Below, piece after piece: positions 644-64,000 of a DNA stretch of 64,000 bases. Position 1 is the stretch's first letter; each line of letters opens with the position of its first letter. The notes under the pieces were generated by a model. It worked only from the letters and a program-made list of their open reading frames with translations, did not search any database and was not told the origin of the DNA. The DNA lies in the NCBI RefSeq assembly GCF_028641065.1, contig NC_073400.1:29450001-29514000 (forward strand). Direction: 5' to 3'. Position numbers and translations under genes: made by a program. The DNA is from Leucoraja erinacea. Lineage: Eukaryota.

Positions 644-734
644 CTTAGAGTCTCTTGTGAACACCGCGGTTGAGATACTCCAGATCACAAGCAGGAGAAA
701 GAACATCCAGCGCCCCACTTTCCATGAGATGTAA
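644..734 (-). CDS. Gene A TM exon (SYISWKVGRWMFFLLLVIWSISTAVFTRDSK), charged activating-type
   Basis: gcccag/gtaggg, 91 nt, phase 2 to 0; clear paralogue of the 91-nt exon at 44006-44096. Confidence 0.8.
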
Positions 735-3700
735 CTGGGCAAAGGTCAAGAAATACAGAGTCAATGGGAGGAAACGAGGCGGTTTATCTTTAAAGCATTT
801 ACCTGTTATCTGCTTCATAATCTTGGTGAAGTGGAGCGGGGCGAAGCGGTAGCGTCAGTGGAGACCATCTTTGTAAAAGAACGGGTGTTGGACTGGGGGG
901 GGGGGGGGGGGGGGGGGACAACATATGATCACCAATTGTTGACATCATTGCTGGGGCATGGCTACAAGACTGGGAATGAGAGACTACGCGGTTAAATGGA
1001 TTCAGAGAAGACAGATAAATAAGTCATGAGCTGGGACAGTGAATACAAAACAGATGGACACAAAATGTTGGAGAAACAGCGGGAGTGGCAGCATCTCTCT
1101 AGAGAGAAGGAATGCGTGAAGTTCCAGGTCGAGACCCTTCCTAAGACCGAGAATCACGGGAGAGGGAAACTGTGGATGTGGAAGGATACAAAGAACAGTG
1201 TGATACCCTGGAAGAAATAAAATGCAGCTGCAAGATTATAATAAAATCCATTTGGATAGACAGGAATAATAAAAACGGATCAATTCCAATAATGGAAGGG
1301 AGATGAGGCAATAAAAATGGAAACAGATGAGGCCAATTAATAAAATAAATTTAAAAATGATTATGCTTAATGACACACCCTGGATACTTCGTGGATCAAC
1401 GCGGTAGGTGTGTGGATGGAGGAATTGTGTTCGAAAAATCGGTTAAAGATTCGCTCATAACGGCGTGGCTTTCATGAACATTTGCTAACGCAAGTATAAC
1501 ACAAGAGTGTGATAGAAAGTCAGATATATTTCAAATGTGATAAGATAAATAACAACGTGTTATCACTTTCATGGCTATATTATGATTGAATATTTAATGG
1601 TTTCAAGTATCAACGAGTAAGAGAGAGTCAGTTAACTCATTTTGCTGTATTCGGTCTGATTCAAGACTATTTTCTCAAATTCTGCGCCAGCGATTTTCTG
1701 GTGTATGGCCCCACCAATGACAAGGTGTTACCACAAGTGATATCAAGGGGAGTGTGGTGTAGCCCATCATTCATAATGCATTTCCCTATCAGCATCACCC
1801 AAGAGCAAGTCACACCAAAGCCAAACTGGAAGACTAGGGTTTGGGAACTATATTAATCTCACAGCATGGGATGAGGTGAGTGATGGAGCAGTCATGTTGA
1901 ATACTGCAGGGAGCGCTCTCTGAAAAGCATCAAATGGAGGAACTTGTTCTTATCATCCAAGCATGTACACAACACAATGAGATGTAAACCAGTGCGATTC
2001 CCCTTCTGATGAGTTAACTAATAACTGGTTTGCAAGACACACTATGGAAACAGGCCATTTGGCCCTTCGGGTCTGTGCTGACCATCAACCGCATTTACAC
2101 AAATCCTGTGAGAAGAAGTTTGGTCTTTAGTTGTGGGAGTCAGTAGGTTTATAATAGACATGGGTCGATAGTCTATCTCCTGTGATGGAGACGGTATGAT
2201 CGAGAAAGGGGAGGAGGGGGTTGAAGATGGTCCAAGTGCGTTTGAGTGCCAGGTGGAGTGCAGGAGACCATTCCCTCTGCAACCCTGTGGAATGTCCCAA
2301 TTCTACTCCTATCCCTTATGACCTTATGACCTATACCTCCCTAGTTATCTCTCCCTTTCCCATCCAAACCACCCTCTCCCCAATTCCTTCCCCATTCAAC
2401 TGCAGGAAATGCAACATCTGTCCCTATAACTCCGCCCTCGACTCGGTCCAAGGAACTCAACAGTCATTTGAGATTCGGCTGAGTTAGCGTGAACCGCCTC
2501 GAACCTCATTTATTGTATCAGGTGTGGACTCTTATACATCAGCAAGACAAAACGTTGACTGGACGATCGTTTCACTGAACACATATGCTCAGTCCGCCTG
2601 GGGCTATTTGATCTCCCAGTTGCTAAACTATTTACCCCCCCCCCCCCCCCTCCCATTCCTACACTGACTGTTCTATTCTGGGCTTTCTCCATTGCCAGAG
2701 TGAGGCCAAATGGAAATTGGAGGAACAGCGCCACACATTTCGCTTGGGCATTTACAGCCAAGCGGTATAAATATTGATTTCTATAACTTCAAATAACCCT
2801 TGCACCCCCTTGCTCTCCGTCCCTCCCCCATCCTAGTCATTGTACCAATTTCACTGTTGTCTTGTAGTGTCTCATTGTCCGTACAACTCGTTTTCAGCTA
2901 GCCCACAGCTAACTATGGATCGTTTCATTCATCATCGTTACTTTTGTTGCATATCTTTCATTCAATGTTTTATATCTTTCTATATCACCGTCGATATCGC
3001 TCTCGTTTCCCTTTCCCCTGACTCACACTCTGAAGAAGGGTCTCAACCTAAAACGTCACCTATACCTTTTCTCCAGAGACGCTGTCTGACCCGACGAGTT
3101 ACTCCAGTTGTTTGTATCTATATTCAGTTTAAACCAGCATCTGCAGTTCCTTCCCACACAATGAAAGGCAAAATATGCAGAACACACATAGACGGCACCT
3201 AAGTTCGGGGTCTTGGCATTGTGAGGCTGTGGTTCCATTGGCTGTGTCTGGGCATTCAGATCAATAATCTCTCGGGCCTTTAATGCCAGTGAACGGAAGA
3301 CACAACTTTCTCCCAATTGAAGTAATCCCAATCAAAACACCAGTAATTAGTACATGGCACCTTTCATTGGAATCAGAGTAGTTTACCTTGATGAAGCATT
3401 GGATCCTTTCGAAGTTTCACAAGAATATTCAAGTCCTGTTAGAACAAGGAAATAAAAATCAGTTTCACTGATTTTCACTTGCTGTTGAACAAGAGAGCAT
3501 GCTTGTCCGATGTAAGGAGTTTATAGATTTAATAGACAGGGCAATGTTTCTCCAGTGTAATTTGTAGAAAATGGGAGATGCTTGCACAACTCAGGTAGAA
3601 CTCAGGTCGCCGACATTAGGGCGGCACAGCGGTAAGAGTTGCTGCCTTGCAGCGCCAGAGACCCGGGTTCAATCCTGACTACGGGCACAATCTGCACTGA

Positions 3701-6700
3701 CTTCGTATGTTCTCCCTGTGACCGCGTGGGTTTTATTCAAATGCTCCGGTTTTCTCCCACATTCTAAAGTCGTGCAGGTTTTGAGGTTAATTGCCTTCTG
3801 TAAATTGTCCCTAGTGAGTAGGATGGAATTGGTGCACCGGTTAAAGGCAGTTGCTTCCACCTGGATTTCTAAACCCAACTAAAGGAGGTGATTTCATGCG
3901 AGGGATATTGCCTGGGATGAAACATTACAGTTCGAAGGAGAAGGCTGGATAGATGGGGATTTTAATCCATATAGGAAAAGAAGGGGGAACCTATTACTGA
4001 TGTCACTGTAAAAATATTTTCAAGCTGTGTAAACATAAGAGGCAGTTCTAGCCGGGAAGCTGGTCTACACCAGCAATGGGAAATCCGTGGCTGGAGCCCA
4101 GCAACCAAGTATTGACAAATGGACCATAATATTATCATTTTAATCTTGATAAGTTAATTAAAGAACGTGCATGGATTTCAGGGTGTCGGGGGTTATGGGG
4201 AGAAGGCAAGAGAATGGGGTGAAGAGGGGAAGATACATCAGCCATGATTGAATGGTCTATTTCTGCTTCTATCACATGTGATTTTATGAACCACCCCACC
4301 CCCACTTCCCCTTCTTCTCCTCATCCCCTCCACTACTTACCAGTGCCGTCGATTTTCACTAGGAAACTGCAGGACACGTCATTGCTGGAGATGGACACGT
4401 TGACCATTTCACTGGATTTTGATCCTTTATTATTTGAGGCTGTGCAATAATATTGATGGTGCTGGTGTTTGAAGGATTGACAATGTAGATCCAGGGCATT
4501 GTTGTCTGAGATCTTTGAATCCCCAGATGGGGTCTTTTCATACCAGGTGTGGTTAATGGGAAGCGATCCCCGGACCGACTCACAGGACACTGTCACCGAG
4601 CCCCCGAGACAAGAGACATTGTCTGGTGACAGACACCCAAGCACAGGAACAGACACGGGTTCTGTGGGAAAGGAGCAAACAGTCAGACACTGAGTGAACA
4701 TCTGAAAATCAAACACTCGCCAATATCCACCATCTCTGTATCTTAGCCAGAGCCGCCAGGTTGGAATCTGACCCATCCATCTACATAGGGTCATAGAGGC
4801 ATGCAGTGTAAGAGCAGGCCTTTCGGTCTAATTTGCCCCCGCTGACCAACATGCCCATCCACACTAGTTCCACCTGCCCTTGCTTAGCCCATAAGCTTCC
4901 AAACGGAAGAGACCGTGCATTTACTCGATCTATTCGTCGTATGATTTTGTAGCTGCCATAAGATCATCCCTCATCTTCCTGCTCTCCCAGAAATAATGTC
5001 CTAGTCTGCTCAATCCCTCCATGGAGTTCAGACACTCAAGTCATGGCAGCATCCTTGTAAATCTTCTCTGCACCCAATCTTACTTGATAGCATCTTTCCT
5101 ATAACATGGTGATGAATACTGACCACAGAGCGGACATATCATCAGACAATCTTCGATTCTCTTTTACATTTCAGGAATTGCCAGCAGGAAAAAGGGAGCA
5201 TTGTTTATATAACTGTCGGACCCATCCCATCTACATAGATTCGTAGAGTCATACAGTAGAAACAGGCCCTTCGGCCTAACTTGCCCGCGCTGACCAACAC
5301 GCCCAATCTACACTAGTTCCACCTGTCCTTTCTTGGCCCTTAACCCTCTAAACATATCCTATTCGTGTAACTGTCCAATATTTTCTGAAATGTTACGTTA
5401 GTACCTGCCATAACTACTTCCGTCGGCATTTCGTTTCATGGACCTACCAATCTTTGTGTAAACACGTTACTCGCCAGGTTCCTGTTAAATCATTCCCCCC
5501 TGATATTAAAACTATGTCCTCTGGTTCCCGATTGCCCTACTCTGGGCAAAAGACTGTGTATTTACTCGATCTATTCCTCGCGTGATGTTTGTGATTTTTT
5601 AAAAAATTTAATAAATATTTTTATTAGAATCAATGTTCAGTAGTATATACCGTGTTTTACATATTACATTTAGTGTGCAACTTCTTGTTTTAAATTTATT
5701 AGTACACAGCAGCACCATCTCTCTTTGTTTTACAATTCCAGCATCTGCAGTTAATATTCTTTTAATCCGAGCCTCTGCTTTTAATCTGAACATTCAAACA
5801 CCTCATTAGTGCAACAGTATCACCATCAACAACTTTTTAATTTCCTTGCACAGAATAGTTGATAGTGATAATGTTGCACAAATGAGGTGTGTGATTGGCG
5901 GTATTGTAGAATTGTGTGTAGGGAGCGAATGGGAAAGTGGAATAATATAGAACTAGTGTGACCAGTGATCGCTAGTTGGTGAGGACTCGGTGGGTCGAAG
6001 GATCCGTTTCCATGTTACATTTGTAAACTACAACTAAATATCCGGGTGAACATGTTTCTGTAAACTCTACAAACCTTTCACATCTTTTATTTTATAAATC
6101 GGCGACCAGAACTGTACACCAGACTCCCACCTAACAAATATTTTGTCCGTTGCCAAGGTGGAGACATAAAGTCACCCATTGAGAAACCTACCTTCAGAAA
6201 CTTGGAGATGTACTTTAAATGTTGGTTCGCCAGGTGTAGTAATTCCACAGCTGTACCATCCTGTATCTCCAGAGTTAAGATCCTCCACAGTCACAGTAAA
6301 TATTCCTCGTGCCGGGTTATCTGACATTGACACTCTTCCACTCTGTCCATGTTCCCCATTTGTTTCCACTGCATGTGTACACTGGCGACTTGTCCCGTTG
6401 CACCAGAATTTTGTGTGTGAGCGGTACACTGCTGCATAATGACAATCGATTGTGATCGCTCGTCCCACAACCCCGTGTACTTCGCTCTCTACCCGCAGTG
6501 CACCTGAAACGGAAGGAATCATCTTTCATAAATTGAAGAGAAAAATTAGCCTTTCACAAACATATACATTATAGTATGCTTCAATGTGTACAGGGGAGTC
6601 CGCGCAATGATTTTCTTAACTCTGTTGAATTCCACCTAGATTGCGATGAGAGACATATACTGTACACCGACCCTCACCATCTGCACAGGTCGTTCCAAAG

Positions 6701-8599
6701 TGCTTCCCAGCCAATGTGGGTGTGAATGGTGAAGAATGATGCATTGAACACTGAGCCTGTTGCAATTGGAAGGCGCTGTCTAGGGAGTCTTGGTGAGTTG
6801 CTGCAGTGCATGGTGCAGATGGTCTAAACTGCTGCTGCTCTGCATCAGTGGGGGAGGTTGAGGATGGGGTGTCTATCAAGCGCGATTTTGGATCATGACA
6901 GACCAAGCACAAGTGTTCAGTGGAATTGTAGCCGCGGCCAGTGCTTCTTAAACTAGTGAATGGTTCACCCAAGGGTGAATGAAATTATTTTGGGGTGAAT
7001 TAGTTAATTTATGTGTTTTTTTGCTCATGTGACATAATTAATTATATATAAAATTATGCAAAAGGGAAAATAAGATGATAATAACCAAAAAAACATAAGA
7101 ACATTTAGTTGAGGGGGAATTACATCTTGTAATAAAGACTCAAGGGTGAATGACACTGAAAGATTTTAAGAAGAACTGCCATTCTATAAACTTGGTCACT
7201 CTGATTTAGACTCTATTCTGGACTTCCAATCTGAACGTCTCCACACCTACTGGGAAGTTCTTTTCAAAATTCTCTTTAACAAAATTAAGGGTTATACTTG
7301 ATGGAGTGACGGCCAAGTAGATTCCACTTTAATTTTGTGAGATTACTGGAATTTGACACAAATTACCAGTTAAAATCATGAAGATAATCATGAAATTGTA
7401 CACCCTTGATTAGAAATGATGGCGGATCCAAACAGAATGAATTTGGTGCGTTCTCCGACTCAAAGTGTGTGTGAGACCTTAAGTGGCAGCCAGAAATAAT
7501 ATTTTTAAGTTGGAAGGGCGAAATTTGATGGAATGCACTAAACACGTTGTGATAAGTGCACGCTTGTCTCTCCTTTGCTGAAATTGTTCAACACATCCCA
7601 GGTGGAAGCAACGGGCTATTATTTGCCAGTCCCCCAAACAAACTCTCGCATTTACACCAGGAGCAGCAATGATGCCGTCTGCAAATAACAAGAAATCCAT
7701 GACCATCACCACAAGGCGAATAGCAGCAGGTTCAGGGACACGAGAAGAACACTCACCTGCATTGTTCATTTCTGTCACATAACTGCACGTTCCTGCTCCT
7801 TTGAAGACTTTCACGTTGAGACTTTCACTGGATTTTGTCCCATGATTATTTGAGGCTGTGCAGTAATATTGACGGTGTTGCCCTCCGAGGATTTCACAAC
7901 TCAGATCCAGTTGATTGCCATACACGGTAGTTGAAACCCAATGCTCGTTCTTCTCAAACCATGTGTAACGGATGGGAAGGGATCCACGGACAGACTCACA
8001 CGACACTGACACTGAGCCTCCGAGACGTGAGGCATTTGCTGCTGATAGATATCTGAGCACAGGAGCAGACACGGGTTCTGTGGGAATGGAGGAAACATCC
8101 AGTCACCTGTATGAACAGTTAAAAACCTTGCTAAATCTCAACAACCCTTTATCTCAGCCCGAACCGTCCGGTTGATATCTCACCGGCTCATCTACATCTC
8201 TGTGAGTGTGCGAAGCCCAGAAACCGAAGAAGGTTAGAGTTATAGAGAACCGAAAGATGCCCATCACAACAGCTCATTCATGCCGACCAACATGTCTTTC
8301 TAGGCCATAGCCATATGTCCACGTTTCTCCCTTATCATTCGCAATGATCCCAATCTACGCAAATATCAAAGAAATATTTTAAATGCTGTTATTCTAACTG
8401 CCTCAACAACTTCCTCTGGCCGCAGGTTCCATATAAATATCACCCAATGTGTGGACAATGTTGTCCATCAGAACAGAAGTTGGGATGTTATGTTTCAGTT
8501 GTACATATGTTGTTGATGTCGAACTTGGGCGAATTGTGTTCAGCTTCAGCCACTCACCTGTACAAAAACATGCCATTACAGTAAGTGACAGCTACTACT

Positions 8600-8653
<54 letters not shown>

Positions 8654-11600
8654 ACCCCCTCCACTCTTTAAATAGTTCCCATTGCGTCCGTCCTCCACTT
8701 TTTGATTCCACACATCGTGGGAAAATGAACATGCTTCTCGTGATTGATACATTTCTATAAGTTCCTCGCTCAATCATTTCCACACCAAGGAATGAAGTCT
8801 GAGTTTGTCCAATCGCTCCCTGCGTCAATCACGTCCTGTCCAGGCAGTTCGGACCAGGGGGCTAACCTGCCCCGGGTGGACTGAACGCAGTCTGTTGAGC
8901 TCTGGGGACTGATTCCCTGTTTATTATTCTCCGTGTATTCAGACCGTGAGCAACACTTGTTTCTCACTGATCTCTCGGATTATTAGTTTGAGTCGGAATG
9001 CAAACCTCTGACAGGGTGACATTTCATACAGTTCAGAGGCAGGGAAATGTGCTGAGCATCCCACTTGAAGTGGGTGGCCGCTCAGTGGGACAGAGCCTGC
9101 ACTGGGTGAGAGCAACATGAGTGGGGTTTCCCGACCCCCGCCCGCTCCCCGCAGGTCTCTGCACTGCCGCGGAGCCTCGGGATATCGGTGCTGCCCTGAC
9201 CCTTCCCGGAGAAAACATGGACCAGGCATTTCAGTGGAGACGTCAAGTCCATCGCTACGAAACGTACCGTCAGATACTTGGAGATGTACGGAAAACATTG
9301 GATGGTCGGCAGACGTTCTAATTCCACAGATGTATCTTCCTGTATCTCCAGAGTGAAGATCCTCCACAGTCACAGTAAATATTCTTAGTGCCGGTATATC
9401 TGTGATGGACACTCTTCCACTCCGTCCGTGTTGCCCATTTGTTTCCACCATATCTGTACATTGGCGACCCCACCCACGGCACCAGTATTTTGTGTGTGAG
9501 CGGTACTCTGTTGCATAGTGACAATCGATTGTGATCGCTCTTCCCACATCTCCTGTTACATTCTTCTTCCCCCAAACTGCAACTGAAATGGAGGGGAAAA
9601 ACTTTTAGATGGAGAGCAAATGAACTGTTTAATGGAAATAGATACATTTCGAAGATCACATGAAAGAAAACATAAACGTTCCATGATGTGTCATATTGCT
9701 TCACGCCCAATGTCTCCGGTCTGAAGTGCAGGCAGTGCTGTTATTGTACCAGTTGTGTCAGTGTTCTGTCCCCGGGGTCAGTACAATTTGGATTCACTTC
9801 CCACTCCAGATCCCAGAGCAGAAACTGGGCTGGAATCGCAATTCGGTACTGAGGGAGCGCGGCAGTGTTGCAGGAGCTGCCTTTCAACAATCCCTGGCGG
9901 TGCCCGGCCTCTCACCCCACAGAAAGACCCACTTTGCTATTGAATTGGCGGTGCCGCCGGCTGCGCTGCCAACATTCTTCTCTCAACCGACACTGGGCCG
10001 GACCCGTGTTTAGATATTCACCGCCTTTACAACGCCCTGACTGAGGACAGTGGACGGACGGGTTACAATAAAGCGGATCAAAAGATAAGGAGCAGGATGT
10101 TTGAAGGGTATAAATAAATATTTTTAAACCGAGAAGATAGAGGTACCTGAATTGCCTCAATGGACGAGGTGCTGGTAAGTGGGATGAGTATTGATAGTAC
10201 TGAATGGTCAACATTAACACAGTGACCCAAATGCGATACCAACGTCTAGGAGTTAACTGTGGCCACATTTACTGATAATTTCTGATCGCTTCACATATTT
10301 GAGTGTCGGTCATGTGGAGATGATGGAAAGTGAAAATGCTTGGACTGATGTCACTGCAAACCTAGTTTAAAGCTGTGTAAACATAAGAGGCAGTTCTAGC
10401 CCGGAAGCTGGTCTACACCAGCACTGGGAAATCTATTTATGGAGCCCAGCAACCAAGTATTGACAAATGGGCCATAATTCCATCATTTTAATCTTGATAA
10501 CGTAATTAAATAACGTGCATGGATTTCAGGGTGTCGGGGGTTATGGGGAGAAGGCAGGAGAATGGGGTGAAGAGGGGAAGATACACCAGCCATGATTGAA
10601 TGGTCTATTTCTGCCGCTATCCTATGAACCACCCCGCCCCCACTTCCCCTTCTTCTCCCCATTCCCTCCACTACTTACCAGTGCCGTTGATTTTCACCAG
10701 GACACTGCAGGGCACGTCACTGCTGAAGATGGACATGTTGACCATTTCACTGGATTTTGATCCATGTTGATTTGAGGCTGTGCAATAATATTGATGGTGC
10801 TGGTGTTTGAAGGATTGACAATGTAGATCCAGGGCATTGTTGTCTGAGATCTTTGAATCCCCAGATGGGGTCTTTTCATACCAGCTGTAGTTAATGGGAA
10901 GGGATCCCCGGACCGACTCACAGGACACTGTCACTGAGCCCCCGAGACAAGAGACATTGGCTGGTGACAGAAACCCAAGCACAGGAACAGACACGGGTTC
11001 TGTGGGAAAGGAGCAAACAGTCAGACACTGAGTGAACATCTGAAAATCAAACACTCGCCAATATCCACCATCTCTGTATCTTCGCCACAGCTGCCTGGTT
11101 GGAATCTAACCCATCCATCTACTTAGAGGCATATAGTGTAGAAGCAGGCCAACATGTCCATCCACACTAGTTCCACCTGCCCTTGCTTAGCCCATAAGCT
11201 TCCAAACGGAAGAGACTGTGCATTTACTCGATCTATTCGTCGCGTGATTTTGTAGCTACCGTAAGATCATCCCTCATCCTCCTGCTCTCCCAGAAATAAA
11301 GTCCTAGTCTGCTCAATCCCTCCCTGGAGTTCAGGCACTCAAGTCATGCTTCAGGCTCTCAACCGACACTGGGCCGGACCCGTGTTTAGACATTCACCGC
11401 CTTTACAACGCCCTGACTGAGGACAGAGGACGGACGGGTTACAATAAAGCGGATCAAAAGATAAGAGACCATAGGTGCAGGAGTAGGCCATTCGGCCCCT
11501 CGAACCAGCACCGACATTCACTATGATCATGGCTGATCATCCACAATCAGTACCCCGTTCCTAAATTACCATATACCCCCTAGTGCCGCTATCATTTGGA

Positions 11601-14600
11601 GTTGCATCTAACTCTCCCTACCTGACGTTTAGGGCCGAGACCCATGCTCAGACCCGAAACTTCACCCATTCCTTCTCTCCAGAGATGCTGCCTGTCCCGC
11701 TGAGTTACTCCAGCTTTTTTTTGTCTATCTTTAATTGACTTTTATTTCCTTTTCTCAACAGAATCTGAATCTATTCGCGAGTCGTTGACAACTGTAGCGT
11801 TCAGTTCAAATACAAAAGTAACACCCGAAAACAGTCATCAGGAAACCACTGCGCCCAGTTTCTCTCACGGGTGTAATGTTCTGTTGCTCAAGTTTTGATT
11901 GGCCTTACTTTTCCATATGAGAGTTGGAGACACATGGAACTGTAGATACATACATAGATACATAGATGCGTAGACAATAGGTGCAGGATTATGCCATTCA
12001 GCACTTCCAGCCAGCACCGCCATTCTATGTGATCATGGCTGATCATCCACAATCAGTACCCCGTTCCTGCCTTTCCCCATATCCCTTGATTCCGCCAGCC
12101 TAAATAGCTCTATCTAACTCAAACGTATGCACCCAGTGAATCGGCTTCCACTGCCGTCTGAGGCAGAAAATTCCACAGATTCACAACTCTCTGGTTGAAA
12201 AAGTTTTTCCTCATCTCCGTTCTAAATGGCCTATCCATTATTCTTAAACTGTGGCCCCCTGGTTCTGGACTCGCCAATATCGGAAACATGTTAGGTACAC
12301 AAAAATGCTGGGGAAACTCAACGGGTGCAGCAGCATCTATGGAGCGAAGGAAATAGGCGATATTTCGGGCCGAAACCCTTCTTCAGACTGTTTCCTGCCT
12401 CTAGCGTGTCAAATCCCTTAATAATCTTATATGTTTATATCCCTCAATAGCAAGAAGGTCCTTCCTCAAATTTGGAGTTCAAAACTGCACCCAATATTCC
12501 AGGTGTGGTCTCACTAGGGCCATGTACAACAGCAGAAGGACTACATTTCTCCTGTGCTCAAATCCTCTTGTTATTAAGGTCAACATGCCGCTAGCTTTCT
12601 TCACTGCCTGCTGCACCTGCATGCTTTATTTCAGTGAGTGATGAACAAGGACCACCCAGATCTAGTTGTACTTCTCCTTTCCCCAACCTGACACCATCCA
12701 GAAAATAATCTGCCTTCCTGCTTTTGCTACTAAAGTGGATAACCTCACATTTATCCACATTAAACTTAATCTGCCACGCATCTTCCCACTAACACAACCA
12801 CTCACCCACTCACCACTCGCTCACTCACCACCCACCTCCAGGTCCCTTATCGGAGAGCGTTACGAGCGTGAAATCGCACACCGGCGAGATTCGGAAGCAA
12901 TTTCTTCACAGCTGTTATCAGGCATCTGAATCATCCTACCACATCCAGAGATCGGTCCTGAACTCCCATCTACCTCTTTGACGACCCTCGGACTACCCTT
13001 GATCGGAATTTGCTGGCCTTACCTTACACTAAACGGTATTTCCTTTTCATGTATCTATGTGCTGTAAGAGGATAGATTGTAATCCTGTATTGTCTTTCTG
13101 CTGGAGACGTCAAGTCAATCGCTGCGAAACGTACCGTCAGATACTTCGAGATAAACGTTAAATATTGGATGGTCGGCAGATGTTGTAATTCCACATCTGT
13201 ACCATCCTGTATCTCCATCCTGAAGATCGTCCACAGTCACAGTAAATGTTCCTCGTGCCGGGTTATCTGTGATTGACACTCTTCCACTCCGTCCGTGTTG
13301 CCCATTTGTTTCCACCAACACTGTACATTGGAGACTCCTCCCACGGCACCAGTATTTTGTGTGTGAGCGGTTCTCTGCTGCATAGTGACAATCGATTGTG
13401 ATCGCTCTTCCCACAACTCCTCTTACCTCCCTCTTTGCCCACACTGCACCTGAAACTGAGCGGAGAAAATTTCAGATCGAGAGAAAATTAACTGTTTAAT
13501 TGAAATACACACATATTGAAGATTACATGAAAGAAAACTTAAATCGTTCCATGATGTGTCATATTGCTTCACAGCCAATGTCTCCGGTCTGAAGTGCAGA
13601 CAGTGCTGTTATTGTCCCAGTTGTGTCAGTGTTCTGTTCCCGGTCAGTACAATTAGGGTTCACTTCCCACTCCAGATTCCTGAAAAGAAACTGGGCTGGG
13701 ATCGCAGTGCGGTACTGAGGGAGCGCGGCTGTGTTGCAGGAGCTGCCTTTCAACAATCCCAGGCGGTGCCCGGCATCTCACCCCACAGAAATACCCCACT
13801 TTGCTATTTTATTGGCGATGTCGCCGGCTACGCTGCCAACATTCATCTCTCAACCGACACTGGGCCGGATCCGTGTTTTTTTAAATTATCAAATTATTTA
13901 TTCAATTATTAAAAATAATATTTACACTACAATAAAACAAGAACCGAACACCATAATACAAGACAAATAAATATTCTAAATAAACGACTATACTTGTCAA
14001 GGATGAATTCAACCACAGGCGGTGCCCAGATGTCCCGGGAATCCCCCAGGTGCCCGTGGACAGCGCCTAGTCATTCTCTAGTACCAAGCGGACGCGGAAA
14101 GCCGACCCGTGTTTAGACATTCACCGCCGCCAATGCCTTTACAACGCCCTGACAGAGGACGAGTTACAAAAAAGCGGGTCCATTACCGGAGAGCGTTATT
14201 GGCGTGACAACGCAAACGGCCAGATTCGGGGAAAGTTTCTTCACAGCTGTTATCAGACATCGGAATCATCCTCCCATAACCAGAGAGCAGTGCTGAACTA
14301 TCTACCTCTTTGGTGACCATCGGACTACCCTTGATCGGACTTTGCTGGCCTTACCTTACACTAAACGCTATTTCCCATTAATGTACCTATGCACTGTAAG
14401 GGGATCGACTGTAATCATGTATCTGGCAGGTTAGCATGCAACAAAAAGCTTTTCTCTGTAACTCTGTACACGTGACAATAAACTGAACTTGAATTTCAGC
14501 ACGACTGGGCCGCGGATCCGAGAGCGGATGGAGAGAGAGTTGGGGGTGGGTGGATAGAGCGAGGACAGTGGTTCAGTCTCAGACTCCGGGGAATTGTTGG

Positions 14601-15057
14601 GTTTACGACAGAGTTGAGATGGACAAATGCAGGGAATATTTGAACTGACACAATGAGACCACAATCCTGACTTCCACCTCTGTTGTAAACACATTTTGTT
14701 AGTGTAGAATTAACTTCCTGGTGATGGAAAAACATCTGTCCTTCGGTCCAGGTGTCTTGGAGTATCTGCTCCAAATACATTCGCTATTTTATGCCTATAA
14801 ACTACCATCAGGATGCAATTAGACCACGTGTTAACGGTGGTTAAACTACGAACATAGTCTAGATATTCAAATGCGATTTCAGATCCATCACCACAATGCA
14901 CTGATTTCCATCTTCCCCATTACACGTCTACACACACTTAACCATCTCTGCTGTGGAAAGGGTGCACGGGACCCCAACTAACATTGATCATTGGAATATC
15001 AAGATCTGACTTTCACTCACAGGGTAGCGAGGCGATGAGAAGAATGGGAATCCACAT
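644..15057 (-). CDS. Gene A: MDIR/CD300-pIgR-like receptor with 6 Ig domains (V-C2)x3 and an activating-type TM. Exons 15021-15057, 13135-13449, 10679-10999, 9268-9582, 7757-8077, 6192-6503, 4341-4661, 3387-3435, 644-734; last exon not found in window
   Basis: All exons have AG/GT boundaries and compatible phases (seven phase-1 junctions, then 2, then 0), giving 694 open codons. Signal peptide MWIPILLIASLP; V domains IDCHY...WC...C...DTGxYxC; TM contains K and R. Confidence 0.85.
2270..3160 (+). mobile_element. Penelope-like element fragment (decayed GIY-YIG end plus terminal repeat)
   Basis: LLYISKTKR*LDDRFTEH near 2530-2590; degenerate hammerhead-like motif at about 3029-3057. Confidence 0.6.
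3387..3435 (-). CDS. Gene A stalk exon (GLEYSCETSKGSNASS)
   Basis: ctaacag/gtaaac, phase 1 to 2; YxC motif shared with the stalk exons of genes B, C and D. Confidence 0.75.
3619..3835 (+). mobile_element. tRNA-derived SINE (HE1/V-SINE-like)
   Basis: GGGCGGCAC... A box and GGTTCAATCC B box followed by the core recurring across the window. Confidence 0.75.
4341..4661 (-). CDS. Gene A Ig C2-type exon 3 (membrane-proximal)
   Basis: cccacag/gtaagt, 321 nt, open. Confidence 0.92.
6192..6503 (-). CDS. Gene A Ig V domain exon 3
   Basis: tttcag/gtaggt, 312 nt, open V domain. Confidence 0.92.
7757..8077 (-). CDS. Gene A Ig C2-type exon 2
   Basis: cccacag/gtgagt, 321 nt; EPVSAPVL..VSCES..W..YYCTASN. 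Confidence 0.92.
9268..9582 (-). CDS. Gene A Ig V domain exon 2
   Basis: tttcag/gtacgt, 315 nt, open V domain. Confidence 0.92.
10679..10999 (-). CDS. Gene A Ig C2-type exon 1 (apparently inserted copy)
   Basis: cccacag acceptor, gtaagt donor, 321 nt; EPVSVPVL..VSCESVRGSLPINYSW..YYCTASN. Confidence 0.9.
11960..12790 (-). mobile_element. CR1/HER1-like LINE 3' fragment with a nested short repeat
   Basis: Reverse-complement similarity to 1-600. Confidence 0.75.
13135..13449 (-). CDS. Gene A Ig V domain exon 1
   Basis: tttcag acceptor, gtacgt donor, 315 nt; AITIDCHY..KYWCRGRSLQC..DTGWYRC. Confidence 0.92.
13879..14103 (-). mobile_element. Short 3' fragment of a non-LTR retroelement (Tx1/L1-like) with a target-site duplication
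   Basis: GAYCCGTGTTT at 13868-13878 and 14104-14114; T-rich end; the empty site is visible in paralogous introns (about 10001-10011 and 59835-59845). Confidence 0.65.
15021..15057 (-). CDS. Gene A leader exon (MWIPILLIASLP)
   Basis: 37 nt from ATG to a GTGAGT donor; same size and motif as four other leaders in the window. Confidence 0.85.
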
Positions 15058-15160
15058 TGTTTTATCCGCAGTGACGAGACCAGCACTTGTCTGTCTGTCG
15101 CTCAGGTCTGAGGTCTCAGATACAATCGCATCTCTCAAATAGCAATGACTAAGAAGGGAA

Positions 15161-15184
15161 CAGGAAGTCAGATCGTGAACCACA
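15161..15184 (-). promoter_or_regulatory. Gene A proximal promoter ETS (CAGGAAGT) and RUNX (TGTGGTT) sites
   Basis: About 105-125 nt upstream of the ATG; retained in gene E at 58734-58757. Confidence 0.45.
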
Positions 15185-16569
15185 GCGAGCCAGTAGCAGC
15201 TCGACACGATGTAGTGTGAAAGGCTCAGGGTTATATTTAACAAATGGTTGGGTCAGATGATCACAGAGTCATACAGCAGGAAACAGGCCCTTCGACCCAA
15301 CGCGTTAGACCAATATGCTCATCTAAGTTGGTCAAATTTGCCCACGCTCGATCCATATCTCCCCAAACCTTCCCTATCCACGGACCTGTCCAATTGCCCG
15401 TTGCATATTGTTATTGCGGCTGCTTCAACCACTTCGTCAAGTATGATGTATCCGTAAGGTTGGAGCGGCGGTTATCTCTGTACTCGGAGTCTGTTAACAC
15501 TGAACAGTGGTGGAAATATTGATAGACAAAAAAATGCAGGAGCAAGTCTGCGGGCCAGGCAGCACATCTGGAGAAAATGGATAGGTGACGTTTCGGGTCG
15601 GGACCTCTCATGTAAACTATGATACTTTGGATGAAATATGACATTTAGAAGAGTAGAAACGTCTAAGATGTGTACACTTGCGGATCATTCCCTCTTGATG
15701 ATTTTGTAAGTGGACCGGCAGATCAAAAATATAATAATTTGTTTTGACATATTGCTGTTAACAAGGGGCAAAACAGGAAGCTGGCGTTAGGAAGTAGGGG
15801 CTTTTCACCTGTAACCAGCTGAGGTTAATTGGAGTTTGTCCCTCTCCTCTCTGCTTGGACTCGTCAATTCAAACTTTGAAACACTAATGTCATGATATTC
15901 ACGTTTTGAAAATGACAATTAATGGTGTAGTGGACTGTGAATAAGTTTGTCTGGAATTACCACAGGATGGAGATCAGCTGGGAAAGCGGGATGTGGAATG
16001 TAACTGACATGTGGAATGTAACTCAAACAAGGGCAAAGTGATACACTTAGTGAAGTTAAAGCAAGGTAGAATATGCACGGTGAATAGAATTGTTAACTTA
16101 TCTTCTTTGCAATGCAGAGCTAATAAATAATCAGGGTTGTGTCGATGTACCTGTCATTACTGAGTGTGTTCACCTGCTTGCATCGATTAATTTCAATCTG
16201 TACGCAATTAATTGCATTATAATATATCTAATATCTGCTGCGGGCTATCGTTCTGGGTGTGTTACTTTCAGGGAACAGTGCAGTTTAGCACTGTCAGAAC
16301 AATTCCGTGTAAAGAAATGGCTGTTTGAACATAAAGTACATTCCTAGCCAGAACCCACCACTAAAAACAACATTCTTTTTCTCCACTGATACTGCCTATC
16401 CCGCGGAGTTGCTCCAGTATATTGTGTCTCTCTGTGGCATCTCAGACTGTTTATCTCTCAATATTTGTGAGGCACTTTGGAACGTCTTGCAGTAGGGAAA
16501 AGCTCAAATTCAAGTTAATTACTCCCATTAGACCATTAATAAGCTCGAGTGCTTAAGGATAAGCACAGC

Positions 16570-22611: not shown

Positions 22612-22922
22612 NNNNNNNNNNNNNNNNNNNNNNNNNNNNNNNNNNNNNNNNNNNNNNNNNNNNNNNNNNNNNNNNNNNNNNNNNNNNNNNNNNNNNNNNN
22701 NNNNNNNNNNNNNNNNNNNNNNNNNNNNNNNNNNNNNNNNNNNNNNNNNNNNNNNNNNNNNNNNNNNNNNNNNNNNNNNNNNNNNNNNNNNNNNNNNNNN
22801 NNNNNNNNNNNNNNNNNNNNNNNNNNNNNNNNNNNNNNNNNNNNNNNNNNNNNNNNNNNNNNNNNNNNNNNNNNNNNNNNNNNNNNNNNNNNNNNNNNNN
22901 NNNNNNNNNNNNNNNNNNNNNN
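22612..22922. other. Assembly gap (N run)
   Basis: Ns. Confidence 1.
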
Positions 22923-43000: not shown

Positions 43001-44229
43001 GTGTCGTCCCTGAGTCGCAGAGAGAAACAATGCAGAAAAAATGCCCATTCGGCCCATCATACCAGTGCCGACTATCAACCACTCATTTACACTCATCCAT
43101 CTTTTATGGCTTTCATTATTTCCCCCACATAATGATCACCTCCCCCAAAACATACAAGTCGGGACAGAGCCCTCTAGTGGTGACTGTAAGGTCAGTCTTA
43201 CCCAGACACAACATATTTCCCCCTCCTTGTAGATAAAGGCGATCATTTAAGTCCAGTTATCCAATCAAATATATGTTTTCCCCCGAATGAGTCGGGGGGA
43301 CATCTTGACTGGTTTTGACCTAGTCATTTTGCCTTGCATAAAATGCACTTACAGGCTCGGAACAACCAGAGTCGATTGTGAGTTATTTAACCGTCAAACA
43401 CAAGAACATATGACATTTCGTATTCCTATTCTGAACCTATTGTAAGTATCTTATTGAATAAATAACCATCATAAGCATTAGCATTGCCCACTCTCGTAGT
43501 GCACTCCTCAAAAGTTCAATAATGTTTCTCAAGCAAGATTTTCTCTTTTAAAGTCCCCGTCTATTATTCATTATAATTCTTATTTTCTTCATATCATCCC
43601 GTTTTCTCAATCAGTCAGGATTCTATCCCTGAAGATCAATCGCAGGCCTAATTGCTGGATCATATCTGCTTCAGTAGATATGGGCAGTGGGAAGGAGAAG
43701 TGGAATAGCAACTCTTACTTGGGATATTGCAATTCGATTGGAAATTGGAAGAGCCAGCAGATAGTTGAGGGATATTGTGCAAATTCAGGCAACAAGGGCT
43801 AGCCCAGAATGTCAATTTGGTCCGTTTTACAAGGTGGGGCGCGGGGGAAGGGTAGGGGGGCAAGGCCACTTTTCCATGCTTTGACCCAATAATTCCAAGC
43901 TGCTCTGGTCAATGAAGATTACAGAGGAAGCAGGAGATAAATGTTGCAAAGACAAAGCAATTCCCTTTCCTCCCATTGACGTTATATATTGTCTTCTTTC
44001 CTCAGTTGCATGATATGGAAAGTGGGGCGATGGGTGCTCTTTGCCCTGCTGGTGGTGTGGACTATTTCAGTTACATGGTACACAAGAAAACCCCAGGTAG
44101 GTTTTAATGGGCATCGGTGGAATCGCTGAATGCTCCAAAATGCTTTCAAATATACAGGCCAGTCACGAATCACCCACGAATCCTATTGAAACCAAAACTC
44201 ATTTTCAAAATTTTCAGTTCCGTGAGTAA
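40076..44229 (+). pseudogene. Gene C: Ig-less activating-type receptor (pseudogene or mini-receptor). Exons 40076-40112 leader, 42565-42667 stalk, 44006-44096 TM, probable terminal exon 44218-44229
   Basis: Leader MWILILLISYLP with GTGAGT donor; stalk DLEYPCETITTEWTT...; TM CMIWKVGRWVLFALLVVWTISVTWYTRKPQ. No V or C2 exon found in between; an orphan V-type acceptor ctcagtttcag lies at 42109-42119. Confidence 0.75.
41443..41740 (+). mobile_element. tRNA-derived SINE (HE1-like)
   Basis: A/B boxes, core and tail. Confidence 0.75.
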
Positions 44230-58860: not shown

Positions 58861-61800
58861 ATGTGGATTCCCATTCTTCTCATCTCCTCGCTGCCGGGTG
58901 AGTGAAAGCCAGATGTTGATATTCCAATGTTCAATGTTAGTTGGGGTCCCGTGCACCCTTTCCACAGCAGAGATGGTTATGTGTGTGTACACATGTAATG
59001 GGGGAAATGGAACTCAGTGCATTGTGGTGATGGATCTGAATTCACATTTGAATATCTAGACTTTGTTCGAGTATTGATGAAAGGCATAAAATAGCGAATA
59101 AATTTGGAGCAGATATTCCAAGACACCTGGACCGAAGAACAGAGGTTCCAACATCACCAGGAAGTTAATTCTACACTAACAAAATGTGTTTAAAACTGAG
59201 GTGGAAGTCACGATTGTGGACTCATTGTGTCAGTTCAAATGTCCCCTGCATTTGTCCAACTCAACTTTGTCTTAAACCCAACAATTCCCCGGAGTCTAAA
59301 ACTGAACCACGGTCCGCGCTCTATCCACCCACTCCCAACTCTCTCTCCATCCTCTCTCCCGTCTGCGGCACAGTCGTGCTGAAAGGTCCAAGGCGAGCCG
59401 GGGTCATCGGGAATAGAACATGGCCCAGATGACCAGCGGGTTCCAAATTCAGTTTAGTTTATTGTCACGTGTACCGAAGTAGAGTGTTTTAGTTGCGAGC
59501 TCCTCCGTCAGCAGAAAGACAATCCATGATTGTTATCGATCATCTTACAGTGCATAGATACAAGAAAAGGAAATAACGTTTAGTGTAAGGTAAAGCCAGC
59601 AAAGTCCGATCAAGGGTAGTCCGAGGGTCATCAGAGAGGTAGATGGGAGTTCAGCACCGCTCTCTGTTTGTGGTAGGATGATTGAGATGCCTGATAACAG
59701 CTGGGATGAAACTGTCCCTGAATCTGGCGGTGTGCGTGTTCACGCTAGTAACGCTCTCCAGTAAGGGACCCGCTTTATTGTAACCCGTCCGTCCTCTGTC
59801 CTCAGTCAGGGCGTTGTAAAGGCGGTGAATGTCTAAACACGGGTCCGGCCCAGTGTCGGTTGAGAGATGAATGTTGGCAGCGCAGCCGGCGGCACCGACA
59901 ATGAAATAGCAAAGTGGGGTCTTTCTGTGGGGTGAGAGGCCGGGCACCGCCTGGGATTGTTGAAAGGCAGCTCCTGCAACACTGCCGCGCTCCCTCAGTA
60001 CCGCACTGCGATCCCAGCCCAGTTTCTGCTCAGGGATCTGGAGTGGGAAGTGAACCCTAATTGTACTGACCCGGGGACAGAACACTGACACAACTGGCAC
60101 AATAACATCACTGCCTGCACTTCAGACCGGAGACATTGGCTGTGAAGCAATATGACACATTATGGAACGTTTTAAGTTTTCTTTCATGTAATCTTCAAAA
60201 TGTATCTATTTCCATTAAACAGTTCATTTGCTCTCCATCTGAAAGTTTCTCCCCTCAGTTTCAGGTGCAGTGCGGGGAAAGAGGGAGGTAAGAGGAGTTG
60301 TGGGAAGAGCGATCACAATCGATTGTCACTATGCAGCAGAGTACCGCTCATACACAAAATACTGGTGCCGTTGGTGGACTATCCAATGTACAGTTTTACT
60401 GGATACAAATGGACAACACGGACGGAGTGGAAGAGTGTCAATCACAGATAACCCGACACGAGAAATATTTACTGTGACTGTGGAGGATCTTCAGTCTGGG
60501 GATACAGGATGGTACAGCTGTGGAGTTTATAAATTTGGCTGGGATCCAATGTTTGACGTTCATCTGCAAGTATATGATGGTACGTTTCGCAGCGATTGGC
60601 TTGACGTCTCCACTGAAATGCCTGGTCCATGTTTTCTCCGGGAAGTGCCACTTTAAGTGGGATGCTCAGCACACTTCCCTGCCTCTGAACTGGAAAAAAA
60701 AATCTAATAATCCGACAGGTACAGATCAGTGAGAAACAGGTGTTGCTCGCGGTCTAAATACCCGGAGAATAATAAACAGGGAATCAGTCCCCAGAGCTCA
60801 ACAGACTGCGTTCAGTGCTCCCGGGGCAGCGCAGCCCGCTCCCCGCCCCCACCTCGGGGATCTGTCACTTTCTCCCCCACCGCGCGCGCTCTCTCTCTCT
60901 CTCCCTCTGCCCCGTCAACGCGCCCCCACCCCCTGCAGCCACTGTCCACCCACCGCCCGGCAGCCAGCCAGCCTCTCCACCCGGACATTTCCCTGGTGGT
61001 AAGGAGAATAATTCATCTTTCGCCCCATCACCCGTCGCACACAGTATATAATCCTCCAACATTTTCGCCACTTCCACCGGAATCCCACAACTAGCCACAT
61101 ATTTCCATCTCCACCGCTTTCTCATCTCCGAAGAGACCGTTCCCTCCGCAACTCCCTGGTCAACTCGTCCTTTCCCACCCAAACCACCCCGTCCCCAGGT
61201 ACCTACAACTGCAGCAGATGCAACACCTGGCCCTATACCTCCTCTGTTCACTCCTTCTAAGGACTCCAACAGTCTTTTCGGGTGAAGCAGCGGTTCACTT
61301 GAATCTTCTCTAAACTCTTCTACTATATCCGCTGTTCCATGTGTGAACAAGATGGGAGACCAAGCGCAGACTCGGCGATCGTTTCGCTGAACAACTGCGC
61401 TCAGTCTGCCTCGGCCTACGCTAATTCCCGTTTGCTAAACACTAACTCCCCCTCCCATTCCCAAACTTACCTTTCTGTCCTGGACCTCCTCCACTGTCAG
61501 AGTGAGGCCAAACGCAAATTGGAGGAACAGCGCCTCATATTTCGCTTGGGCAGCTTACAACCCAGCGGTTTAAATATTGACTTCTCAAACTTCAAGTAAC
61601 CGTTGTTGTACCCCTGTCTCAATCCCGCCCTAGTTCTCCATTTAGATTCACTGTCCTCTTCATTATATTTTACAGATTGTATGCCTCGTTGTCACCTTCC
61701 CTTCGTCTGACAATGATCCATTCTGCATTTCCGTTTAACATTGTCAACTTTTAGCACTTTTTTTCCCTCCTTATTCTTCCATTACTCTTCTGTCACCTAG

Positions 61801-63945
61801 ACCTGACTCTCAGGCTGCAGAAGGCTCTCGACCCGATTCTTCACCCATTCCTTCTCTCGAGAGATGCTGCCTGCCCTGCATAGTTACGATAGCATTTTGT
61901 GTCTATCTTAAAGGGATCGTAATTAATTTTCGCCTGCATTGAACAGGGTTATTCGCACGCTGGTCTTCATCAGTGAGAACATTCAGAACATAATTTGAGA
62001 TAATATGCTTCAGACGTGCAGATGTTGAGTCAACATATTGGGAATTGTGTTCAGCTTTAGTCCCTCAGCTCCTAGAAAAGTGCCGTTGAGGTGGACAGCG
62101 TGCAGAAAGGTTTTAGGGCGACGCTGCCTGGACAGGATGGGATTGACGCAGGGAGCGATTGGACAAACTCAGACTTCATTCCTTGGTGTGGAAATGATTG
62201 AGCGAGGAACTTATAGAAATGTATCAATCACGAGAAGCATGTTCATTTTCCCACGATGTGTGGGATGAGGAAGTGGAGGACAGGGGTAATGGGGACTATT
62301 TAAAGAGGGGAGAATAGTAAGGTGTCACTTACTGTAATGGCATGTTTTGTACAGATGAGTGGCCGAAGCTGAACACAATTCGCCCAAGTTCGACCTCAAC
62401 AACATATGTACAACTGAAACATAACATCCCAACTTCTGTTCTGAGGGACAACATTGTCCACACATTGGGTGATATTTATATGGAACCTGCTGCCAGAGGA
62501 GGTTGTTGAGGCAGTTAGAATAATAGCAGTTAAGATGCATTTTGGACAGTTGCGTAGATTTGGGATCATTGCGAGTGATAAGGGAGAAACATGGACACAA
62601 GGAAATGGCCCAGAAAGACATGTTGGTCGGCATGAATGAGCTGTTGTGATGGGCATCTTTCGGTTCTCTATAACTCTAACCTTCTTCGGTTTCTGGGCTT
62701 CACACACTCACAGAGATGTGGATGAGCCGGTGAGATGTGAACCGGACGGTTCGGGCTGAGATAAAGGGCTGCTGAGATTTAGCACGTGTTTGGTTTTGAA
62801 CTGTTCATACAGGTGACTGAATGTTTGCTCCATTCCCACAGAACCCGTGTCTGCTCCTGTGCTCAGATATCTGTCACCAGCAAATGCCTCACGTCTCGGA
62901 GGCTCAGTGTCAGTGTCCTGTGCGTCTGCCAGTGGATCCCTTCCCATCCATTACACATGGTGTGAGAAGAACGAGCATCGGTGGTCAACGATCTTGTCTG
63001 GCAATCAACTGGATCTGAGTTGTGAAATCCTCGCCGGCCAACATCGTCAATATTACTGCACAGCCTCAAATAATCTTGGGACAAAACCGAGTGAAATACT
63101 CAACGTGAAAGTCTTCAAAGGAGAAGGAATGTGCAGTTATGTGACAGAAATGAACAATGCAGGTGAGTGTTAACTCATTCACCCTTGGGTGAACCATTCA
63201 CCAGTTTAAGAAGCACTGGCCTAGGCCACAGTTTCGCTGAACACTTGTGCTTGGTCTGTCGTGACCCAGAATCGCGCTTGAAAGACACCCCATTCTCAAC
63301 CTCCCCTGCTGATGCAGAGCAGCAGCAGTTTACACCATCTGCACGATGCACTGCAGCAACTCACCAAGACTCCCTAGACAGCGCCTTCCAATTGCAACAG
63401 GCTCCGTGTTCAATGCATTATTTTTCACCATTCACACCCACATTGGCTGGGAAGCGCTTTTGGAACGACCTGTACAGGTGGTGAGGGATAGTGTACAGTA
63501 TCTGTCTCTCATCGCAATCTAGGTGGAATTCAACACAGCTAAGAAAATGATTGGGCGGAGTCCCTTGTATACTAGAATGTGTATGTTTGTGAAAGGCTAA
63601 TTTTGCTCTTCAATTTATCAAAGATGCTTCCTTTAGTTTCAGGTGCACTATGGGCTGAGAGCGAAGTAAGAGGGGTTCTGGGAAGAGCGATCACAATCGA
63701 TTGTCACTATGCAGCAGTGTACCGCTCACACACAAAATACTGGTGCCGTGGGACAAGTCGCCAGTGTACACATGTGGGTGAAACAAATGGGAAGAGCGGA
63801 AGAGCGTCATTCACAGATAACCCGGCACGAGGAATATTTACTGTGACTGTGGAGGATCTTCACTCTGCTGATACAGGATGGTACAGTTGTGGAATTACTG
63901 CACCTGGCGAACCAACATTTAAAGTATATCTCCAAATATCTGAAG
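58861..63945 (+). CDS. Gene E (5' part): inverted paralogue of gene A. Exons 58861-58897, 60265-60579, 62842-63162, 63643-63945; continues beyond the window
   Basis: Leader MWIPILLISSLP (an in-frame upstream ATG lies at 58849); V, C2 and V exons with canonical splice sites. Confidence 0.88.
60265..60579 (+). CDS. Gene E Ig V exon 1
   Basis: tttcag/gtacgt, 315 nt. Confidence 0.92.
60985..61910 (+). mobile_element. Penelope-like element fragment in a gene E intron
   Basis: GETKRRLGDRFAEQLRSV (GIY-YIG-like) at about 61354-61407; RKLEEQRLIFRLGSLQPSGLNIDF C-terminus; absent from the paralogous gene A intron. Confidence 0.7.
62842..63162 (+). CDS. Gene E Ig C2-type exon
   Basis: cccacag/gtgagt, 321 nt; paralogue of 7757-8077. 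Confidence 0.92.
63643..63945 (+). CDS. Gene E Ig V exon 2
   Basis: tttcag/gtaggt, 303 nt (9 nt shorter than its paralogue 6192-6503, frame preserved). Confidence 0.9.
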
Positions 63946-64000
63946 GTAGGTTTCTCAATGAGTGACTTTATGTCTCCACTTTGGCAACTCATAAAACATT

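What the first reader, a model, noticed from the sequence alone, without database searches (positions are those of the whole stretch)
9980..13135. Exon shuffling with visible junctions: gene A gained a V-C2 module in two steps
Seen: gene E reads L-V-C2b-V, whereas A reads L-V-C2a-V-C2b-V-C2a. Step 1: a copy of intron-1 sequence (12841-13102) is fused about 33 nt downstream of the V1 donor (TGTCTTTCTGCTG|GAGACGTC), the junction of a tandem V duplication. Step 2: a roughly 1.27-kb block (10090-11355) holding a C2a exon, homologous to 3996-5045, sits between two 110-bp direct repeats (9980-10089 and 11356-11465, 2 mismatches). Bases 10090-10343 do not match the local C2a flank, so the donor may be another paralogue. 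Inference: a template-switch or circular-intermediate insertion restored the V-C2 alternation, which hints at selection for that pairing.
Basis: partly seen in the sequence, partly recalled or inferred. Interest (0 to 1): 0.75.

Follow-up and report, generated by a model that had tools for sequence, protein, structure and literature searches.

The report
Skate immune receptor gained extra exon
A gene of a known skate immune-receptor family (MDIR) carries an extra immunoglobulin exon in a 1.27-kb block with both joins still readable, likely copied in from a sister gene during DNA break repair; it is a clear example of exon shuffling, an ordinary process in such gene clusters.

Summary
The 110-bp repeats (2 mismatches), the 1,266-bp C2a block and the join 33 nt past the V1 donor are all there, and short-read contigs of two samples each cross one block junction, so mis-assembly is unlikely. 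The gene is a skate MDIR (pIgR/CD300-like) receptor: leader, six phase-1 Ig exons, stalk and transmembrane exons; its exons match a little-skate RefSeq model at 100%. The block likely came from a paralogue: 10090-10343 is the normal 3' flank of other C2a copies, in collinear order, so no circular permutation. Step 1 is not a recent duplication inside gene A: V1 and V2 belong to separate lineages with separate thorny-skate counterparts, and V-V heads occur in three other skates, including clearnose-skate MDIR3. That removes the argument that selection restored V-C2 alternation. Best reading (0.6): an old V-V head, then a repair-copied insertion. Rival (0.2): deletion from a longer array. Splicing of the new exon is not shown. 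The scan has reported MDIR module swapping before on other skate DNA. Known family, known process; interest 0.3.

The parts
15021..15057 (-). Gene A leader exon (coding part, 37 nt, phase 1)
13135..13455 (-). V1 exon (Pfam V-set); alternative acceptor at 13449
13102..13103 (-). Junction J1: 33 nt of V-donor intron joined to intron-1 sequence, 2-nt overlap
12841..13103 (-). Intron-1-derived segment (dispersed-repeat fragment, 87% to E intron 1, 84% to A intron 1)
11452..12840 (.). 1,389-bp patchwork of repeat fragments absent from E; supplies the last 14 bp of both direct repeats
11356..11465 (.). Right 110-bp repeat (96 bp of V-upstream intron, identical to E, plus 14 bp of the patchwork)
11349..11355 (.). 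Junction J3: 7 inserted bases between C2a upstream intron and the right repeat
   Evidence: contig 11319-11385, 0 differences, run X6
11000..11348 (-). C2a upstream intron carried with the block
   Evidence: normal continuation past 11348 in X1, X2, X6
10679..10999 (-). Added C2a exon (stalk-adjacent type, five cysteines)
10344..10678 (-). C2a downstream intron, homologous to 3996-4340
10090..10343 (-). Segment X: further downstream intron of other C2a paralogues, not of the local C2a
9980..10089 (.). Left 110-bp repeat; junction J2 at its 10082-10089 end, where up to 8 bases are shared with X's own continuation (inferred from one contig of X2)
9268..9582 (-). V2 exon (Pfam V-set)
7757..8077 (-). 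C2b exon (internal type, four cysteines)
6192..6503 (-). V3 exon
4341..4661 (-). Terminal C2a exon
3387..3435 (-). Stalk exon (49 nt, phase 1 to 2, one cysteine)
644..734 (-). Transmembrane exon, MDIR5 type (90% over 31 residues), in frame with the stalk exon
58861..63945 (+). Gene E used for comparison: leader 58861, V 60259-60579, C2b 62842-63162, V 63637-63945; runs off the window

Best explanation
Gene A is a skate MDIR receptor gene with six in-frame Ig exons whose second domain, a C2a exon, sits in a 1,266-bp block that was likely copied from a paralogue into the intron of an older V-V head during repair of a DNA break. Step 1 (join J1 shown, age inferred): a V exon plus 33 nt of its intron was joined to intron-1 sequence upstream of another V, over a 2-nt overlap; this likely predates the little skate/thorny skate split and is an old duplication or an exchange between paralogues. 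Step 2 (joins shown, route inferred): synthesis left the intron 397 bp upstream of V2, picked up a C2a exon with both flanks from a sister gene, and rejoined, leaving 7 extra bases at one end, a short overlap at the other, and a 110-bp direct repeat. Two variants are about equally likely: one out-and-back template switch that duplicated the 110 bp, or one-sided homologous invasion of a donor that already had a C2a-to-V intron, so that the left repeat came with the donor. Because every Ig exon is phase 1-1, the added exon is predicted to splice in frame and give V-C2a-V-C2b-V-C2a-stalk-TM. No selection is needed to explain it.
For: Shown: repeats, block, filler and J1; open phase 1-1 exons; stalk and TM exons. 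A 67-bp contig of run X6 matches 11319-11385 with 0 differences (30 letters of intron, 7 of filler, 30 of repeat) and a contig of run X1 covers 10016-10115 with 1 difference (74 letters left and 26 right of 10089/10090; 60 and 40 at 10075/10076). X is natively attached to the C2a downstream intron: X6 contig 10289-10390 with a different letter at 10336, X2 contig 10306-10368. Past 11348, contigs of X1, X2 and X6 run on into the ordinary C2a upstream intron, so 11348 is a true breakpoint. The local C2a lacks X and differs by 6.4%; by residues the added exon is nearer P0034 d5 (7 of 106), P0035 d4 (8), P0019 d6 (9) than the local C2a (12). The pre-insertion state exists: V2's counterpart P0034 d2 follows a V directly, and V1-like domains (87-89%) are the first V of V-V heads in P0036, P0039, P0123; MDIR3 reads V-V-C2b-V-C2a.
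Against: The donor locus was not seen (no genome held). A clade of the added C2a with the local C2a and the next gene's C2a is not rejected (p-AU 0.355; with the local C2a alone 0.04), so the protein tree alone does not prove a distant donor. A deletion from a longer array gives the same sequence. The 7-nt filler has a 6-nt match 18 nt away, but 20% of random 7-mers do as well, so templating is not shown. Splicing is not shown: about 3 RNA reads lay on the exon at 97% likeness, under the listing threshold, partner exon unknown, paralogues not excluded. X6 or X1 may be the assembled individual. The thorny-skate V-V genes are RefSeq predictions and their introns were not seen. Gene conversion blurs all exon trees.
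Confidence: 0.6

Rival explanations
1. Deletion from a longer array. A four-exon unit (V-C2b-V-C2a) was first duplicated in tandem behind a V-V head, making J2; a later deletion from the edge of the right repeat to the C2a upstream intron (J3) removed V-C2b-V and left V1 next to C2a. The 110-bp repeats are then leftovers of the unit, and A lost three exons rather than gained one.
For: Same final sequence. Thorny-skate model P0001 has four such units that start with the second-V type. The X1 contig across J2 has mean depth 61 against 9-27 for pieces that look single-copy, a weak hint that J2 exists in more than one copy.
Against: Depth is no copy number; my bounds for junction words run from 19 to 60, which includes single copy. 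The terminal C2a of A lacks X, so a further exchange is needed. The deletion would have to start within 110 bp of the older junction in an intron of about 2.2 kb. RefSeq models here fuse neighbouring genes (P0005, P0021), so P0001 is weak evidence.
Confidence: 0.2
2. One reading: a recent tandem duplication of V inside gene A, then a circular-intermediate or template-switch insertion fixed by selection because it restored V-C2 pairing.
For: V-C and C-V neighbours make up 390 of 422 adjacent domain pairs in 144 homologues. The junction geometry fits duplication plus insertion.
Against: V1+V2 clade rejected; only 3 of 41 informative intron sites unite V1 and V2 against E; no permutation of the block; V-V neighbours in 23 and C-C in 8 of 144 homologues; alternation follows from duplicating V-C2 cassettes without selection (inference); the added exon shows pN 0.057, pS 0.041 against the local C2a on few sites, which says nothing on selection.
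Confidence: 0.07
3. The six-domain form is ancestral and E-type genes lost a V-C2 module.
For: Six or more alternating domains occur in many shark and ray models; P0001 also starts V-C2a-V-C2b-V-C2a.
Against: A's V1-C2a intron is a patchwork of intron-1 and C2a-intron pieces with abrupt joins, while E's intron 1 is uninterrupted. MDIR5 has E's four-domain order. P0001 d1 is only 70% like V1.
Confidence: 0.05
4. Mis-assembly or a haplotype artefact made the block.
For: The cluster is repetitive; no listed contig spans the whole stretch; no long reads were available.
Against: Short-read contigs of two samples hold J3 and J2; the block differs from the local copy by 6.4% and has 7 bases found in no donor context.
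Confidence: 0.03

Closest known systems
Modular domain immune-type receptors MDIR3 (P0043) and MDIR5 (P0037) of clearnose skate; family of Cannon et al. 2006, PMID 16738934 (not read; reference entry seen)
   Same: V2-C2b-V3-C2a is 80% identical over 424 residues to MDIR3; TM exon 90% like MDIR5; same V and C2 modules in varying order.
   Different: Head is V-C2a-V, not V-V (MDIR3) or V-C2b (MDIR5); MDIR3-like stalk joined to an MDIR5-like TM; intronic breakpoints are readable.
RefSeq little-skate model 'Fc receptor-like protein 5' (P0005, 1,078 aa)
   Same: Its first six domains match gene A's exons at 100%, so the exon is already annotated.
   Different: The model skips the stalk and TM exons found at 3435-3387 and 734-644 and adds four domains from beyond the window; likely a fusion of two genes.
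Thorny-skate V-V-C2b-V-C2a models P0034, P0036, P0039 and array model P0001
   Same: Hold the counterparts of V1, V2, C2b, V3; show the V-V state before the insertion.
   Different: No single model is orthologous domain by domain; P0034's first V is another lineage.
Primate KIR cluster fusion genes (PMC7516082, passages read)
   Same: Tandem Ig-receptor cluster in which deletions and recombination shuffle domains, with breakpoints in introns.
   Different: KIR breakpoints are described as lying in intragenic transposable elements; J1 and J3 here join unlike sequences with 2 nt of overlap or a 7-nt insert, and change domain number.
Template-switch (FoSTeS/MMBIR) and one-sided homologous invasion finished by end joining (recalled, no paper read)
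   Same: Copied segment from a nearby donor, short insert at one end, short overlap at the other, local duplication.
   Different: Inferred from end products only; the donor was not located.

Membership tests
MDIR family | Skate Ig-superfamily receptor built of V-type and C2-type modules | tested here: met
   3 of 3 V exons pass Pfam V-set; 3 of 3 C2 exons hit Ig models, 1 of 3 above a curated cut-off
MDIR family | High identity to named MDIR proteins | tested here: met
   80% over 424 aa to MDIR3; domains 75-86% to MDIR3 and MDIR5
MDIR family | V domains related to CD300/pIgR/TREM (PMC3031540 passage) | tested here: met
   Best solved-structure hits of V1 are pIgR and CD300 chains
MDIR family | Leader, stalk and transmembrane exons | tested here: met
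MDIR family | Signalling class of the tail (ITIM, charged TM or neither; recalled) | tested here: inconclusive
   TM is MDIR5-like; no cytoplasmic exon of A found in the window
MDIR family | Expressed as a spliced transcript | tested here: inconclusive
   About 3 reads on the added exon in one RNA run, 5% of it read; no joint listed
Symmetric-exon shuffling | Moved exon is phase-symmetric and lands in an intron of the same phase | tested here: met
   6 of 6 Ig exons phase 1-1 with lengths divisible by 3
Recent intragenic tandem V duplication | The two copies are each other's closest relatives | tested here: not met
   AU test and tree; intron distances
Circular-intermediate insertion | Inserted block is circularly permuted against its donor | tested here: not met
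   X adjoins the C2a downstream intron in other copies; 11348 continues into ordinary intron
Retrotransposed insertion with target-site duplication | Intron-less insert, poly(A) tail, short duplication | tested here: not met
   Block keeps both intron flanks, has no poly(A), repeat is 110 bp
Template-switch insertion | Microhomology or templated insert at both ends | tested here: inconclusive
   Up to 8 shared bases at J2 from one contig; filler match not above chance
Template-switch insertion | Both junctions arise together and occur in equal copy number | not testable with these tools
   No genome held; contig depth is no copy number

The most novel reading that the evidence does not exclude
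The C2a block is a young allele still segregating in little skates, so domain number in this receptor varies between individuals through break-repair copying from paralogues; and the added domain, a stalk-type C2 placed mid-chain, carries an orphan cysteine that links receptors into disulfide dimers, a new function gained by one shuffling event that can be tested allele against allele.
Probability: 0.15. Interest if true: 0.55.

Novelty: new member of a known kind. Interest (0 to 1): 0.3.

Why it matters
Exon shuffling is usually inferred from domain order long after the joins have decayed. Here three joins survive at base resolution in a family named for its modular build, so the route can be tested with long reads and population data. 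It also shows that the RefSeq model of this gene likely fuses two genes. It does not reveal a new family or mechanism, and gives no evidence of selection for V-C2 pairing.

Tried and rejected
Genome search for the source of X: no genome held. No RNA holder listed; not used as evidence. First read lay at 90% over 8900-15300 was swamped by repeats and listed no piece across a junction. X1 shows no cover of 11349-11377 and X2, X6 none across J2 (arithmetic): holes prove nothing and are not used as absence. Multi-copy J2 from depth: bounds 19-60 include single copy, kept only as a hint. Templated filler: not above chance. The repeat as a clock: rejected, the right copy has 0 of 96 differences from E where 5.5% is local (P 0.004). 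First intron distances were inflated by a misalignment and were redone. RefSeq arrays as proof of tandem units: weak, since P0005 and P0021 each run across a gene end. Trees used skate rows (plus two sawfish models) and left out other sharks and rays; one search used 45 V and 39 C2 rows. Literature: seven searches gave no paper on MDIR breakpoints; the founding paper is not held, so its text and supplements may already describe this domain order.
Full report
Identity. The window holds a cluster of immunoglobulin-superfamily genes among many repeat fragments. Gene A, on the minus strand, has a leader (15057-15021), six Ig exons, a stalk exon (3435-3387) and a transmembrane exon (734-644). All six Ig exons are open and phase 1-1. 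They match the little-skate RefSeq model P0005 at 100%, and exons of genes D and E match P0021 at 100%. V exons pass Pfam V-set and resemble pIgR and CD300 structures. V2 to the last C2a is 80% identical to clearnose-skate MDIR3 and the TM exon is 90% like MDIR5. A passage of PMC3031540 describes MDIRs of skate as similar to CD300, TREM, FCAR and pIgR. The founding paper (PMID 16738934) was seen only as a reference entry; that it reports one to six domains per receptor is my recall.

Observation. The repeats match at 108 of 110 bases, the block is 1,266 bp, and its C2a part differs from 3996-5045 at 64 of 1,005 columns; X (10090-10343) has no match in the window. J1 lies 33 nt after the V1 donor with a 2-nt overlap.

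Is it real? Of 24 runs listed I laid six: four at 90% over 8900-15300 and four at 97% over 9950-11450, two of them twice. In one search a contig of X6 matches 11319-11385 exactly (30 + 7 + 30 letters), and neighbouring contigs end at 11348 and start at 11356. A contig of X1, another sample with the same species label, covers 10016-10115 with one difference; it has 26 letters beyond 10089, short of the tool's 31, but 40 beyond 10075. Either run may be the assembled animal, and no piece spans the block, yet short-read contigs do not depend on the assembly's long-range joins. Mis-assembly is unlikely (0.03).

Step 1. A recent duplication inside A predicts that V1 and V2 are sisters. They are not. 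In a tree of 45 skate V domains V2 pairs with thorny-skate P0034 d2 (100/99) and V1 with P0005 d7 (99/88); holding V1 and V2 together is rejected (p-AU 4e-5). Upstream introns differ by 9.6% (V1 v V2), 6.2% (V1 v E) and 5.5% (V2 v E), and E is the odd one out at only 3 of 41 sites. V1-like domains are the first V of V-V heads in P0036, P0039 and P0123, and V2's counterpart is a second V. MDIR3 reads V-V-C2b-V-C2a. So the V-V state is likely old and shared; whether J1 is an ancient duplication or a join between paralogues cannot be told. Conversion among exons, noted in earlier scan findings on other skate DNA (not tested here beyond the star-like distances), weakens all these trees.

Step 2. 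X is the ordinary continuation of the C2a downstream intron in other copies: contigs cross 10343/10344 in X6 (10289-10390, another letter at 10336) and X2 (10306-10368), and depth over X is of the order of the exons', not of the repeats'. Beyond 11348 contigs of X1, X2 and X6 continue into normal C2a upstream intron. The block is thus collinear with a donor, which argues against a permuted circle, and the donor has X, which the local C2a lacks. By residues the added exon is nearer P0034 d5, P0035 d4 and P0019 d6 (7-9 differences) than the local C2a (12), but a clade with the local C2a and P0005 d10 is not rejected (p 0.355). One X2 contig matches from 10082 onward with 128 unlaid letters before it, which suggests up to 8 shared bases at J2 (inference). 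The filler's 6-nt match nearby is not above chance (20% of random 7-mers). Three routes give this sequence: an out-and-back template switch that duplicated 110 bp; one-sided invasion of a donor that already had a C2a-to-V intron, finished by end joining; or deletion of V-C2b-V from a longer array. The first two are insertions (0.6 together, about even). The deletion (0.2) needs a start within 110 bp of an older junction and a further exchange to explain the missing X at the terminal C2a. The X1 contig at J2 has depth 61 against 9-27 for single-looking pieces, but bounds for junction words are 19-60, so extra copies are only hinted. The repeat is a poor clock.

Function and selection. The exon is predicted to splice in frame. 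RNA evidence is thin: in X24 (5% read) depth on the exon is 1.3-2.8, all first mates on the + strand, and the edge bin equals two reads stopping at the donor 10679; no joint was listed and paralogues are not excluded. Among 144 homologues, mostly RefSeq predictions and not independent, adjacent pairs are V-C 264, C-V 126, V-V 24, C-C 8; 23 proteins have V-V. Alternation is common but not required. The added exon has a fifth cysteine (position 17) found in 71 of 79 C2 domains followed by a cysteine-bearing stalk, 50 of 134 followed by another Ig domain and 29 of 70 others; skate internal C2b domains lack it. If it normally bonds the stalk cysteine (inference, untested), it is unpaired in the new position. 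That is not what a simple restoration would predict.

Comparison and verdict. Domain shuffling by deletion and recombination is established for clusters such as primate KIR (PMC7516082, passages). Seven searches found no description of MDIR breakpoints; the founding paper could not be read. Earlier scan notes report MDIR arrays and module exchange in other skate DNA; none lay near this place or matched by sequence. Verdict: real, a new member of a known kind, with well-preserved junctions; interest 0.3.

Noticed in passing
window 3435-3387 and 734-644 (-): Gene A has its own stalk and TM exons, which RefSeq model P0005 skips before adding four domains from beyond the window; P0021 likewise runs from gene D through its TM into gene E. 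Both models likely fuse neighbouring genes.
   Followed up: partly
window 734-644 (-): If the 49-nt stalk exon is skipped, this TM exon is read in another frame that stops early; that frame matches the C-termini of P0021, P0044 and P0123, suggesting secreted forms or mis-modelled ends.
   Followed up: partly
window 40064-44110 (+): A leader exon and a TM-like exon with no Ig exon between them (no tblastn hit below E 0.69): likely a relic gene that lost its Ig exons.
   Followed up: partly
window 10999-10679 (-): The added C2a keeps the fifth cysteine typical of stalk-adjacent C2 domains and may have it unpaired.
   Followed up: partly
window 11356-11451 v 59771-59866: 96 bp identical between gene A and gene E although the adjacent intron differs by 5.5% and the distal part by 12.6%: possible recent conversion tract.
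   Followed up: partly
window 6137-8847 v 62124-64000: A and E are collinear from C2b to V3 except for about 770 extra bases in A (6982-7748); A also has about 130 bases after V2 (9073-9202) shared with genes B and D but not E.
   Followed up: no
window 34531-23396 (-): Gene B is a complete V-C2-stalk-TM-tail gene of MDIR2 type (tail 83% to MDIR2), matching RefSeq P0133.
   Followed up: partly
P0047 (another skate's RefSeq model): A model joins TRIM-type RING/B-box domains to C2b-V-C2a; likely a gene-model fusion, not checked.
   Followed up: no
window 22612-22922 and 30649-30995: Two assembly gaps (N runs) lie in the cluster, one inside gene B's V-C2 intron; none inside gene A.
   Followed up: no
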